A stretch of 64,000 bases of DNA from Eledone cirrhosa. Lineage: Eukaryota. Below the pieces are notes generated by a model that saw only the letters and a list, made by a program, of their open reading frames with translations, did not search any database and had not been told where the DNA came from. The position numbers and the translations under genes are program-made. The stretch lies in contig OZ024753.1 of the NCBI GenBank assembly GCA_964016885.1, positions 40,796,001 to 40,860,000 on the forward strand. Reading direction: 5' to 3'. Of this stretch, positions 461-56,070 are shown one piece after another; the first letter of the stretch is position 1, and every line of letters starts with the position of its first letter.

Positions 461-462
<2 letters not shown>

Positions 463-665
463 AAGGAGTAGGACCCGGACGGCTGAGCTCAACCCATTTC
501 GACGGCTAATTCTGGACTAAAACATTTTACTCCAGAATTAGCCGTCGAAACGGCTTGAGCTCAGCCGTCGGGGTCCTACTCGTTCCTATTACCCACTCTA
601 CTACCCTAATCATTGAGTACTTTGGTGCGTTATGGTCCACCTGGTTCCTTACCACATTTCCTTCG

Positions 666-668
<3 letters not shown>
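461..668 (+). mobile_element. (TA)n-embedded Penelope/retrozyme-like 3' fragment, family P1 (3' half of a hammerhead plus inverted 5' copy)
   Basis: Hairpin GACGGCTAATTCTGGA..TCCAGAATTAGCCGTC, then GAAA-CGGCT TGAGCTC AGCCG-TC; the 5' part is an inverted copy; flanked by (TA)n; five further copies in the window. Confidence 0.75.
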
Positions 669-1054: not shown

Positions 1055-1116
<62 letters not shown>

Positions 1117-1120
<4 letters not shown>

Positions 1121-1247
1121 CCGTCGAAACGGCTTGAGCTCAGCTGTCGGGGTCTTACTGGTTCCTATTACCCACTCTACTACCTCAAGTATTGAGTACT
1201 TTGGTGCGTTATGGTCCACCTGGTTCCTTACCACATTTCCTTCGTTA
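1117..1247 (+). mobile_element. P1 family 3' fragment
   Basis: Near-identical to 538-668, between (TA)n arrays. Confidence 0.8.
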
Positions 1248-4796: not shown

Positions 4797-4975
4797 GGGC
4801 GTTGGATTGGCAGTATCGGTAGAGGGTCGGACGCCATGCTCTGCAGCATAGAGTTACGGCCCTTTACAGTGTGAGTTAACTTTGCCTTTCATCCTTACGG
4901 GGTCGATAAAATGAAGTACCAGTAATACACTGGGATAATTAATTGCTGGCCTTGGGCCAAAAGTAGAAACAATTA
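4797..4975 (+). mobile_element. Meta-domain-type tRNA-derived SINE
   Basis: GGATTGGCAGTATCGGTAGAG head, TTTGCCTTTCATCCTTACGGGGTCGATAAAATGAAGTACCAG core; flanking repeat TACATTTACTAT at 4781-4792 and 4977-4988. Confidence 0.88.
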
Positions 4976-5229
4976 TTACATTTACTATTATTGGTTCTGT
5001 TGTCGTCGTTGTTGTTGTTGTTGTTGTGATATTTCGAAAGATTTCAGTAGTTTCTACCCAAAAGGAAGAGTTAAGAAAAAGACGTATTTTTGCAGTGCTG
5101 TAATAATGAAACACTTTCCTCAATGATCAGACGTCACCAACTCAATTCATGTTAGTCTAATGGAAATATCATCAGAAACAAATCCACCTGCGTCTAATTG
5201 GATAGACGCACATTGGCAAATGAATAAAC

Positions 5230-7538: not shown

Positions 7539-8019
7539 TGTATATATATAAATACACACACACAATCACACACACAATCACACACACATATGTATTGCAT
7601 ATGTATATATGTAAGTATATATATATATATATAATTATATACTCTTATACATAGACATATACATATATATATATATATACATATACATACATTTATACAC
7701 ACACACACGCACATACTTACATATACACATACACACAAAAGTTTTTTTTCTTATCTGCTCAGTCAGTGTTTTGTTATTTTTTGCCATTCATGCAGTTATT
7801 GTTACAGACCACGTGTGCCCTACCGTAGGGCAGTGACGCGTGTGGACACCGTGGCTCGGACACGCGTTTTCCATTGCAGGAGGTCTTATTTGATGTAACC
7901 TTCCGAGATGACAATCCCTCAGCACATGTTGGTGTTTTCTTTGTTTTCTACTTTTCATTGTTGTTTTTCTTCCCCCTTTTTTCTTCTTATTCGTAACTAA
8001 TGGTCTAATATTATTATAT

Positions 8020-8200
8020 TGGCAGAATCGTTAGAGGGTCTGACGCCATGCTTTGCAGCATAGAGTTACGGCCCTTTCCATTCTGAGTTCAAAATCCAGC
8101 CGAGGTTAACTTTGCCTTTCATCCTTACAGGGTCGATAAAATAAAGTACCAGTAATACACTGGGTAATTTGCTGACCTTGTGCCTAACGTAGAAACAATT
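8020..8200 (+). mobile_element. Meta-domain-type SINE
   Basis: Same head, core and 3' end as 12406-12589. Confidence 0.88.
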
Positions 8201-8333
8201 ATTATATTATATCTATATACGCTTTTTTCGCTCTTCGTCTCTCTTTCTTTCTTCAAACTGATGTGATTCTCTCTCACCCCCTCTCTCTTACCCTCTCTGA
8301 CACACACACACACACACTCTCTCTGTCTCTCTC

Positions 8334-12405: not shown

Positions 12406-12589
12406 GGCGGTGGATTGGCAGTATCGGTAGAAAGTCGGACGCCATGCTTTCCAGCATAGTTACGTCCCTTTACGATCTGAGTTCAAATCCCGTCGAGGTT
12501 AACTTTGCCTTTCATCCTTACGGGGTCGATAAAATAAAGTACCAGTAATGCACTGGGTATTTGCTGGCCTTGTGCCAAACGTAGAAACA
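12406..12589 (+). mobile_element. Full-length Meta-domain-type SINE with 19-bp TSD
   Basis: A/B boxes, core; ATTATTTTAATAAGAATAT at 12387-12405 and 12590-12608. Confidence 0.92.
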
Positions 12590-13028
12590 ATTATTTTAAT
12601 AAGAATATTTCTGATTTCTTATTTGACGAGAGAGCGGGACAATAATTAGGTTTTGTAGAGTGTACACAGCCCTTACAGAAATAGGAATAGTAGAGGGATC
12701 TAAACTATTTATATAAATATTTATAATAAAAAAATGATATGGTCATGTGTGAAGATGTTATAAAATAGGTTATAAAACGGGATGAAGACCCTTAAAGACG
12801 GGAAAAAATATTTACATCGGCCGCTAGGATGTAGCGAACCCCAAGATCTATCATATATATATATATAGAGAGAGAGAGAGAGTGAGAGAGAGAGAGAGAG
12901 AGAGATGTAAAATCCTGATCGTGGTGCCCAGCGATTTCGGCTTTTGTGGTCAGCAAGCCTTTTTAAAGGTGTAGTGGTCTCCCCGTAGTCTTAGCCCCGC
13001 AGACTCTCTCTCTCTCTCTCCCTCTCTA

Positions 13029-20103: not shown

Positions 20104-20105
<2 letters not shown>

Positions 20106-20266
20106 ACAAAGAGCGTGTGGTAAGATGCCAGGTGGACCATAACGCACCAGTGTACTCGATACTTCCAGTAGTACAGTCGGAAATAGGAAAAGAGTCAGGA
20201 CCCCGACGGCTGAGCTCCGGCCGTCTCGACAGCTAGATCCGAACAGTTCAGCTCTAGCTGTCGAGA
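20104..20266 (-). mobile_element. P1 family, diverged subfamily
   Basis: Same 3' body; hairpin GACAGCTAGA..TCTAGCTGTC shows paired changes relative to 500-546. Confidence 0.75.
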
Positions 20267-24218: not shown

Positions 24219-24220
<2 letters not shown>

Positions 24221-24389
24221 CGAAGGAAATGTGGTAAGGAACCAGGTGGACCATAACGCACCAAAGTACTCAATACTTGGGGTAGTAGAGTGGGTAATAG
24301 GAACCAGTAAGACCCCGACGGCTGAGCTCAAGCCGTTTCGAATTAGCCGTCGAAACGGCTTGAGCTCAGCCGTCGGGGTCTTACTGGTT

Positions 24390-24392
<3 letters not shown>
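24219..24392 (-). mobile_element. P1 family copy with inverted 5' segment
   Basis: Palindromic arrangement centred near 24340; flanked by (TA)n. Confidence 0.8.
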
Positions 24393-42294: not shown

Positions 42295-42349
42295 TATTTT
42301 GTCTGATGAGGACGTACTGTTGTACATCGGAAATATGTATAATAAAATG
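42295..42349 (+). ncRNA. Minimal type I hammerhead (P3-related family)
   Basis: TATTTTGT-CTGATGA-GGACGTAC TGTT GTACATCG-GAAA-TATGTA-TA-ATAAAATG; inverted partial copy at about 42147-42237. Confidence 0.75.
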
Positions 42350-42674
42350 TAATTGATCAAAAGAACATCTATTTTATTAATATTTATATATATATATATA
42401 TAAGTATATCTCTCGGCTGAAGAGGAGGTCATATAACTGTCCATGCATTAATAAATTGCTATAACCACTTATCTTCATGTTGTACTTTAACCTATATCTT
42501 TGATTTTTGATTGTACCTATTAATATAAATGTAATCTCGAAGTGTGTACTGCCACTCTAAATTCTGTAATGAATGTTGACCCACAATGTTTGAATATGTA
42601 TCAATGTTTGAATATGTATTGGTATATCTCTCGGCTGAAGAGGAGGTCATATAACTGTCCATGCATTAATAAAT

Positions 42675-42721
42675 TGCTCCGAAGAATCCAAACCTCGGTT
42701 TGGAGGAAACAGCTGTAAGCA
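42675..42721 (+). ncRNA. Hammerhead with CCGAAGA core (family P7)
   Basis: TGCT-CCGAAGA-ATCCAAAC CTCG GTTTGGAG-GAAA-CAGCTG-TA-AGCA inside element 42406-42760. Confidence 0.75.
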
Positions 42722-42752
42722 CAATAATGTTTTGAACAGTTCTTTGATTCTT

Positions 42753-42790
<38 letters not shown>

Positions 42791-42794
<4 letters not shown>

Positions 42795-42978
42795 AAAAAA
42801 GTCAGGACTCCGAAGGCTGAGCTCCAGCCGTTTCAGCAGTTAGTTCGGATCTAGCTGTCGAAACGGCCGGAGCTCAGCCGTCGGATTCATGACTTTTTTC
42901 CTATTACCCACTCTACTACCCGAAGTATTGAGTACTCTGGTGCGTTATGGTCCACCTAGTATCTTACCGCAACCTCTT

Positions 42979-42984
<6 letters not shown>
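42791..42984 (+). mobile_element. P1 family (diverged subfamily) with inverted 5' segment
   Basis: Matches 20104-20266 reverse complement. Confidence 0.78.
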
Positions 42985-43095: not shown

Positions 43096-43282
43096 TGAAG
43101 GAAATGTGGTAAGGAACCAGATGGACCATAATGCACCAAAGTACTCAATACTTAGGGTATTAGAGTGGGTAATAGGAACGAGTAGGACCCCGACGGCTGA
43201 GCTCAAGCCGTTTCGACGGCTAATTCTGGACGGAATTAGTCGTCGAAACGGCTTGAGCTCAGCCGTCGGGGTCCTACTCGTT

Positions 43283-43286
<4 letters not shown>
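43096..43286 (-). mobile_element. P1 family copy with inverted 5' segment
   Basis: Matches 461-668 reverse complement. Confidence 0.8.
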
Positions 43287-55731: not shown

Positions 55732-55785
<54 letters not shown>

Positions 55786-55793
<8 letters not shown>

Positions 55794-56070
55794 AAGAATC
55801 AAAGAACTGTTCAAAACATTATTGTGCTTACAGCTGTTTCCTCCAAACCGAGGTTTGGATTCTTCGGAGCAATTTATTAATGCATGGACAGTTATATGAC
55901 CTCCTTTTCAGCCGAGAAACATACCGATACATATTCAAACATTGATACATATTCAAACATTGTGGGTCAACATTCATTACAGAATTTAGAGTGGCAGTAC
56001 ACACTTCGAGATTACATTTATATTAAGAGGTACAATCAAAAATCAAAAATACAGGTTAAAATACAACATG
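55786..56070 (-). mobile_element. Family P7 element with hammerhead at 55825-55871
   Basis: Reverse complement of 42476-42760. Confidence 0.8.

What the first reader, a model, noticed from the sequence alone, without database searches (positions are those of the whole stretch)
461..668. P1 family: every copy is cut inside hammerhead stem II and most fold back there
Seen: six copies (461, 1117, 20104, 24219, 42791, 43096) retain stem II-GAAA-stem III (CGGCT TGAGCTC AGCCG)-TC-GGGG, but none has CUGANGA. In five, the 5' side continues as an inverted copy starting within or at the stem II hairpin. Two subfamilies show paired changes (GACGGCTA/TAGCCGTC vs GACAGCTA/TAGCTGTC). Inference: reverse transcription stalls in the strong stem II and switches to the nascent cDNA, giving a reproducible structure-driven route to the inverted termini known from Penelope-like elements.
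Basis: partly seen in the sequence, partly recalled or inferred. Interest (0 to 1): 0.7.

Follow-up and report, generated by a model that had tools for sequence, protein, structure and literature searches.

The report
Penelope stubs end at capped start
These small mirror-image repeats are stubs of a known kind of jumping gene (a Penelope-like element), and most stop at one point that often carries an extra G, likely the capped start of the element's RNA, so they are likely run-off copies made from both ends of a DNA cut, not copies that stalled in the ribozyme and folded back.

Summary
Six copies are real: none has CUGANGA, five have an inverted arm. They are stubs of an autonomous 3.54-kb Hydra-clade Penelope-like element (at least 25,076 tail ends genome-wide). 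Long copies hold a whole hammerhead with core YUGANAA, not CUGANGA. Stall plus fold-back fails. Ends pile up at -46..-35 from the cleavage site (101 of 166 arms), beyond the stable part of stem II. 24 of 24 arms arriving from 1.5 kb or more downstream read through -41. In 23 of 67 pairs neither arm contains the other. The peak at A(-41) carries an untemplated G (59 of 100; control 2 of 40; older subfamily 61 of 89), on both arm types. Best reading: reverse transcription starts at two internal sites near the 5' end of capped RNA, one per target end, runs off the cap, and the two cDNAs are joined; full-length arrays come from another, likely circular, template. No RNA data; one control was ambiguous. 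The scan had noted the two-start-site, two-arm model before on other DNA; its listings showed no capped-start reading.

The parts
461..521 (-). Copy 1, tail-less inverted arm, element positions +17 (start site A, before TAT) to -44 (0 = hammerhead cleavage site)
522..525 (.). Copy 1, 4-nt spacer between the arms
526..666 (+). Copy 1, tail arm, -44 to +97: inferred transcription start A(-41) at 529, stem II 3' strand 535-546, GAAA 547-550, stem III 551-567 with palindromic loop, predicted cleavage site 569/570, stem I 3' arm 570-586, start site A 586/587, 80-nt tail 587-666, start site B 666/667
1116..1245 (+). Copy 2, solo tail arm, about -33 to +97, (TA)n on both sides; 100% identical over 133 nt to the youngest subfamily with intact arrays
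20104..20244 (-). Copy 3 (older subfamily), tail arm ending at -40
   Evidence: end read by eye
20245..20266 (+). Copy 3, partner arm beginning at A(-41), lost after about -20
   Evidence: read by eye
24220..24341 (-). Copy 4, tail arm, +97 to -25
24340..24391 (+). Copy 4, tail-less arm, -35 to +17; 2-nt overlap with the tail arm; the arms are not nested
42793..42839 (-). Copy 5 (older subfamily), tail-less inverted arm, to about -23..-28
42840..42983 (+). Copy 5, tail arm from -43; A(-41) at 42842; 3' end approximate
43097..43231 (-). Copy 6, tail arm, +95 to -40
43233..43284 (+). Copy 6, tail-less arm, -35 to +17, after a 1-nt spacer

Best explanation
P1 copies are short stubs of an autonomous Hydra-clade Penelope-like element whose 5' ends pile up at one A inside hammerhead domain II, often with an extra G that likely records the RNA cap, so they are likely run-off cDNAs primed from both ends of a cut (TA)n target and then joined. 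Shown: parent element, two fixed 3' ends (+17, +97, each before TAT), 5' pile-up peaking at -41, extra G on both arm types, non-nested arms, read-through by long arms. Inferred steps: (1) Pol II starts at A(-41), so the 5' hammerhead copy is transcribed without its core and cannot cut. (2) The element's protein cuts (TA)n; one target end primes at site A, the other at site B, usually on RNA from the same source. (3) Each cDNA runs 58 or 138 nt to the cap and may copy it as C. (4) The two cDNA 3' ends are trimmed and joined by 0-7 nt microhomology or filler, giving the lopsided palindrome; if only one end is primed, a solo stub results. (5) Long arms and perfect tandem arrays come from a second template in which -41 is internal, most likely a hammerhead-cut circular monomer.
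For: Parent: 3542-nt unit, open 780-codon frame, arrays of 98.5-100% identical units in most loci; full-length copy L132 with whole 5' and 3' hammerheads. Pile-up: 49 of 99 tail arms and 52 of 67 tail-less arms end at -46..-35. TA-joined arms matching each pattern: 275 at -41, 11 at -45, 40 at -38, 95 at -36. Base before A(-41), genome-wide: G 5050, C 4275, A 827; native base is T, or C in one subfamily. TA-joined: G 59, T 27, A 9, C 5 in the first 100 of 275 rows, against G 2 of 40 at -38 (hand counts; Fisher p 8e-10). Older subfamily: G 61 of 89. No G at -42 seen in the 80 aligned whole hammerheads. 20 G-bearing loci have plain (TA)n flanks; 14 are tail-less and 4 tailed, 2 unresolved. G-bearing arms: 51 tail-less and 49 tailed in the first 100 of 4300 rows, with 5 tail/tail-less pairs carrying G on both arms (hand count). 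Non-nested arms: tail-less arm more than 5 nt longer at its 5' end in 23 of 67 pairs, shorter in 9. 59 of 71 inverted partners end exactly at site A. Read-through: 24 of 24 arms from 1.5 kb or more downstream (20 independent insertions) pass -46, whereas 49 of 63 A/B-primed arms reaching -41 stop in -41..-46. Arms share the subfamily loop in 34 of 40 pairs, shuffled mean 10.2. Papers: untemplated G as cap mark in L1/SVA (PMC4859970, passages); PLE start site lies in the pLTR (PMC8557442, passage); PLE RT starts at two internal sites defining the tail, extends both target strands and is predicted to be a dimer (PMC11167929, parts 1-2).
Against: No RNA evidence for a cap or a start site. The control at -36 is ambiguous: G 31, T 28, C 28 (native), A 8 of 95 (hand count), so an extra G is not unique to -41; a secondary start or an AG-to-AG slip could explain it, neither tested. 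Many stubs end at -40..-35, which needs trimming. In inverted pairs a G at -42 can be supplied by the partner arm. Long-arm read-through may partly reflect survivor bias of processive complexes. Shared subfamily variants between arms fit fold-back equally well. The Inr-like motif match rests on a recalled consensus (one search found no paper). The arm sample comes from the first 24.4 Mb of contig C1, and BLAST ends are good to 2-3 nt only. No circular RNA was observed.
Confidence: 0.7

Rival explanations
1. One reading: RT stalls in hammerhead stem II and switches to its own cDNA, which makes the inverted arm.
For: Breakpoints lie within domain II in the broad sense; 35 of 67 pairs have both arms ending within 5 nt of each other; arms share subfamily variants in 34 of 40 pairs.
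Against: Stop rate in the paired stem is background; 24 of 24 long arms read through; 23 of 67 pairs are not nested and 9 barely overlap; solo tail-less stubs exist; both arms carry an extra G in 5 listed pairs, with 0-6 nt between them.
Confidence: 0.07
2. The pile-up is a physical RNA 5' end but not a capped start of the autonomous mRNA. It is either a nuclease-cut end where RT adds a C, or the start of short SINE-like transcripts from the stubs themselves.
For: Run-off plus an added base explains the same DNA data; G also appears at -37; stubs reaching -43 keep the Inr-like motif and could be transcribed.
Against: By eye, the stub variants each have long counterparts, so no stub-only lineage is evident; this was not tested formally. 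The peak is at the same A in subfamilies that differ around it. A conserved bulged hairpin predicted just behind site B exists only in RNA that continues into the ORF, not in stub transcripts (weak fold, z -1.3; lead from earlier scan notes).
Confidence: 0.16
3. Copies were inserted longer, and the centres were later trimmed by DNA-level palindrome breakage and repair.
For: Centres vary, with overlaps of up to 27 nt called by BLAST and fillers of up to 27 nt; palindromes are known to be unstable (recalled).
Against: It cannot give a one-nucleotide peak with an extra G in solo copies; long palindromic insertions persist.
Confidence: 0.05

Closest known systems
Hydra clade of C-terminal EN+ Penelope-like elements (Craig et al. 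2021, PMC8557442; section 11 and passages read)
   Same: RT with C-terminal GIY-YIG-type EN, DKT, CxCX5C linker, CxxC and CxH, no CCHH, (TA)n target, hammerhead, tandems, inverted 5'-truncated copy, tail on one end
   Different: RWR instead of RWK; 3.54-kb unit (paper: generally under 3 kb); 80-nt tail (paper: 30-40); core YUGANAA; a fixed 5' end with an extra G is not in the passages read. Supplements not seen, so the family may already be listed there.
Poseidon PAc of Anolis, in vitro (Frangieh et al. 2024, PMC11167929; parts 1-2 read)
   Same: Two internal RT start sites bounding the tail, downstream of the hammerhead; both target strands extended
   Different: Here both start sites precede TAT, which could pair with a (TA)n primer (paper: no homology); here genomic signs that the products run off a capped 5' end and are joined in pairs
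L1 twin priming and cap-derived G (review PMC4859970, passages read)
   Same: Inversion by priming from both target ends; untemplated 5' G
   Different: In L1 the G marks full-length copies and the inverted part does not duplicate (recalled); here the G marks 58-138-nt stubs and the arms duplicate each other
PLE hammerheads and the RNA circle model (Cervera and de la Pena 2014, PMC4209133; parts 1-2 read)
   Same: Type I hammerhead in the pLTR, U3-A8 core variant (Schistosoma Cercyon), palindromic loop 3, opposed pairs, proposed circles for head-to-tail tandems
   Different: Domain II is about 56 nt long and holds the inferred transcription start; one abundant subfamily has C3 with A8, a mismatch

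Membership tests
EN+ Penelope-like elements | Single ORF with RT and C-terminal GIY-YIG-type endonuclease | tested here: met
   780-codon open frame with YRDD and VIY..YIG motifs; nearest Atlas clusters score 0.96-0.99, some with RVT_1 or GIY-YIG on part of their members. Pfam and PDB sequence scans of fragments gave nothing.
EN+ Penelope-like elements | pLTR tandems, inverted 5'-truncated copy, one-sided tail | tested here: met
Hydra clade | DKT motif, CxCX5C linker, CxxC and CxH around E and N, no CCHH | tested here: met
   Read by eye in the ORF against the criteria
Hydra clade | RWK motif near the N-terminus | tested here: inconclusive
   RWR at that place
Hydra clade | Insertion into (TA)n | tested here: met
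Hydra clade | Placement in the Hydra clade of an RT tree | not tested
   No reference proteins were fetched
Type I hammerhead ribozyme (parent element) | Stems I-III around the core, GAAA and a GUC site | tested here: met
   Constrained fold -26.6 versus free minimum -29.3 kcal/mol; two-sided changes in native stem II between subfamilies
Type I hammerhead ribozyme (parent element) | Canonical CUGANGA core with C3-G8 | tested here: not met
   0 of 80 whole copies collected (the pattern allowed G8); C3/A8 in 44 and U3/A8 with intact UGA in 30. U3-A8 is a known natural variant reported active in vitro (PMC3088659, passage).
Type I hammerhead ribozyme (parent element) | Self-cleavage | not testable with these tools
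   Needs an in vitro assay
Non-LTR retrozyme | Non-coding tandem monomers each with a whole hammerhead | tested here: not met
   Window copies are coreless stubs; the parent is coding
MITE or foldback DNA transposon | Fixed symmetric terminal inverted repeats, no RT parent | tested here: not met
   Lopsided arms, variable centres, RT parent

The most novel reading that the evidence does not exclude
This Penelope-like element starts transcription inside its own ribozyme and cuts off the priming sites at the 3' end of its mRNA. Its RT can then prime capped mRNA only near the 5' end, giving tens of thousands of strong-stop-like stubs, while ribozyme-made circles are the productive template. The ribozyme would thus separate an mRNA pool from a replication pool, and the same rule may hold across hammerhead-bearing PLEs.
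Probability: 0.4. Interest if true: 0.8.

Novelty: new variant of a known kind. Interest (0 to 1): 0.6.

Why it matters
How Penelope-like elements, the closest relatives of telomerase, make their tandem and inverted insertions, and what their hammerheads do, is stated as open in PMC8557442 and PMC4209133. This family gives nucleotide-level genomic marks: two fixed priming sites, a fixed run-off point with a cap-like G on both arms, and a separate read-through class. These turn the question into simple tests. It also shows that abundant MITE-like hairpins can be abortive retrotransposition products.

Tried and rejected
Rfam scan of the window at E up to 1: no hammerhead among the 150 of 320 matches listed. 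Canonical CTGANGA within 34 nt upstream: 52 genome matches with heterogeneous context, none native; the 30 inspected were junction filler or other elements. P1 as a stand-alone 150-nt SINE: rejected once long copies appeared. Neptune clade: my first guess, rejected on motifs. Pfam and PDB scans of ORF fragments: no hits. RNA runs: no RNA holder listed; this is no evidence either way, and no reads were laid. A compound (TA)(GA) target as source of the G: not seen next to the insertion in 20 loci. 3' splice-site or trans-splicing reading of the AG at -41/-40: no constant upstream sequence. MTE/DPE promoter matches: weak, recalled consensus, dropped. One search had a wrong gap length (0 hits; repeated). 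One search was mis-oriented and not used. One apparent subfamily chimera (L115) is anecdotal. Literature searches for a cap G or strong-stop product in PLEs listed no paper with those terms together; the library lacks most subscription papers.

Full report
Setting. The window is G000:C13:40796001-40860000 in a 3.0-Gb, microsatellite-rich animal genome. Positions below are relative to the predicted hammerhead cleavage site (0), measured on the real full-length copy L132. Counts marked 'hand count' were tallied by eye from the rows a search listed.

Observation. The six copies exist as described; none has CUGANGA and five have an inverted arm. The family is large: 25,076 exact matches to a tail-end pattern, 0 for the control. 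The typical insertion is (TA)n, a short inverted arm ending at +17, a variable centre, a long arm with an 80-nt tail ending at +97, then (TA)n. 59 of 71 inverted partners end exactly at +17. In the native element both +17 and +97 are followed by TAT.

Parent element. A pattern with 60 upstream bases showed long copies. Walking upstream gave a 3542-nt unit with an open 780-codon frame and near-perfect head-to-tail arrays. The protein has DKT, RWR, a CxCX5C linker, CxxC and CxH, and no CCHH, matching the Hydra-clade description in PMC8557442 section 11; no tree was built. Long copies carry a whole type I hammerhead: core at -86..-80, stem II 5' strand -78..-67, about 35 nt of insert, 3' strand -35..-24, GAAA, stem III with palindromic loop, stem I. 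Of 80 whole copies collected from my loci (not a random sample), 0 have CUGANGA, 44 have C3/A8 and 30 have U3/A8 with position 7 free. U3-A8 is known from Schistosoma PLEs (PMC4209133) and reported active (PMC3088659). The youngest, array-forming subfamily has U3/A8. The paired changes cited came from the inverted copy; the native stem II shows genuine two-sided changes in the older subfamily.

Where the arms end. I took tail-anchored copies in genome order (30 loci returned, 60 regions fetched covering all but one of the other 70 listed rows), giving 99 distinct tail arms. 49 of 99 tail arms and 52 of 67 tail-less partners end at -46..-35. The stop rate there is 0.12 and 0.15 per nt, against 0.009 and 0.012 in the paired stem (-34..-24) and 0.003-0.007 downstream or far upstream. 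The distal sub-hairpin at the peak folds at -1.5 kcal/mol, all of domain II at -9.7. Of 30 loci where the hammerhead half continues into the ORF (first 30 of 189 matches), 27 read on upstream. All 24 that arrive from at least 1.5 kb downstream (20 independent insertions) pass -46; the three that stop extend only to +213 or +317. Among A/B-primed arms that reach -41, 49 of 63 stop within 5 nt. An intact stem II is therefore not a barrier.

Fold-back test. A fold-back arm must be contained in the first cDNA. The tail arm has 80 nt that the other lacks, so it must be first and at least as long at its 5' end. In 23 of 67 pairs the tail-less arm is more than 5 nt longer, in 9 shorter, in 35 about equal; 9 pairs overlap by 3 nt or less, the pattern of L1 twin priming. 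Window copy 24219 is such a case. Tail-less stubs flanked by (TA)n on both sides are common (14 of 20 loci), so site A primes on its own. Against over-reading: the arms share the subfamily loop in 34 of 40 pairs (shuffled mean 10.2), which fits one source RNA under either model.

The extra G. The native base before A(-41) is T (C in one subfamily) and was not G in the 80 aligned whole copies. Genome-wide it is G 5050, C 4275 and A 827 times; C is inflated by partner arms and the C subfamily. In arms joined directly to (TA)n it is G 59, T 27, A 9, C 5 (first 100 of 275). At -38 it is G 2 of 40; in the older subfamily G 61 of 89, of which 6 look like segmental duplicates; only 11 such arms start at -45. 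These patterns miss flush joins. G-bearing arms are 51 tail-less and 49 tailed (first 100 of 4300), with five pairs carrying G on both arms. Flanks are plain (TA)n. Untemplated G is the accepted mark of a copied cap in L1 and SVA (PMC4859970), and PLE start sites lie in the pLTR (PMC8557442). The A sits in TTAGTY or TCAGTC, like a recalled initiator consensus (no paper found). Result against: at -36 the preceding base is G 31, T 28, C 28, A 8 of 95, almost all in one sequence variant; a second start or an AG-to-AG slip is possible but untested. No RNA run was available.

Mechanism. Most likely (0.7), capped RNA begins at -41, so the 5' hammerhead copy lacks its core. The protein cuts (TA)n, and each target end primes at one of two internal sites, as shown in vitro for Poseidon (PMC11167929). 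Both cDNAs run off the cap and are joined with short overlaps or filler. Long arms and perfect arrays, each array paired with an inverted partner where seen, need a template with -41 internal; circles, proposed in PMC4209133, fit best but were not observed. If the 3' hammerhead cuts at 0, capped mRNA keeps priming sites only near its 5' end, which would explain why about nine in ten arms are stubs (inference).

Novelty. Element class, inverted copy, tail, TA targeting, U3-A8 core and two start sites are known. Earlier scan notes describe two-armed insertions and twin start-site hairpins on other DNA of this genome. I reached the twin-priming reading before seeing them and took the hairpin lead from them (weak folds). 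A look-up for cap or strong-stop readings found no note holding all the words, and paper searches found none. Papers seen: PMC8557442 (passages, section 11), PMC11167929 (parts 1-2 of 4), PMC4209133 (parts 1-2 of 4), PMC3088659 and PMC4859970 (passages), 10.64898/2026.07.22.740005 (part 1 of 5). No supplements were read; those of PMC8557442 may list this family.

Verdict. Interest 0.6.

Noticed in passing
L303:7170-10000: The 5' end of a 3.5-unit array turns into at least 50 near-perfect tandem copies of a 55-nt piece of the ORF in the same orientation; repeated RT slippage or a minicircle.
   Followed up: no
L301:1785-4022; L314; L315: Arrays of 257-299-nt deleted derivatives spanning the hammerhead region and ORF start; the 299-nt unit keeps the core with a shortened domain II, a candidate retrozyme arising from this element.
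   Followed up: partly
L132:8609-8729 and 43 other copies: An abundant subfamily has C3 with A8 (mismatch) in the hammerhead core yet made many long copies; it may be a weak ribozyme or be mobilised in trans.
   Followed up: no
window 540-555: The stem II 3' strand can pair with the stem III 5' strand (-8.0 kcal/mol), an alternative hairpin favoured over the hammerhead fold and available to RNA starting at -41.
   Followed up: partly
L115: One arm joins one subfamily's core region to another subfamily's downstream part, with the switch near the start-to-cleavage interval; a possible strand transfer.
   Followed up: no
L333; L324: L333 has a 9-nt G-started fragment, (AT)7, then a second G-started arm; L324 has (TA)6 filler between its two arms.
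   Followed up: no
window 42303-42335; 42414-42792 and 55754-56070: Other repeat families with CTGANGA hammerhead-like motifs, one with a 317-nt second copy on the other strand.
   Followed up: no
window 4800-4980, 8018-8210, 12406-12600 and about 15 more: A very abundant SINE-like family of about 200 nt unrelated to P1.
   Followed up: no
L081, L085, L086, L098, L100: Several other Penelope-like RT/GIY-YIG families lie beside P1 insertions.
   Followed up: no
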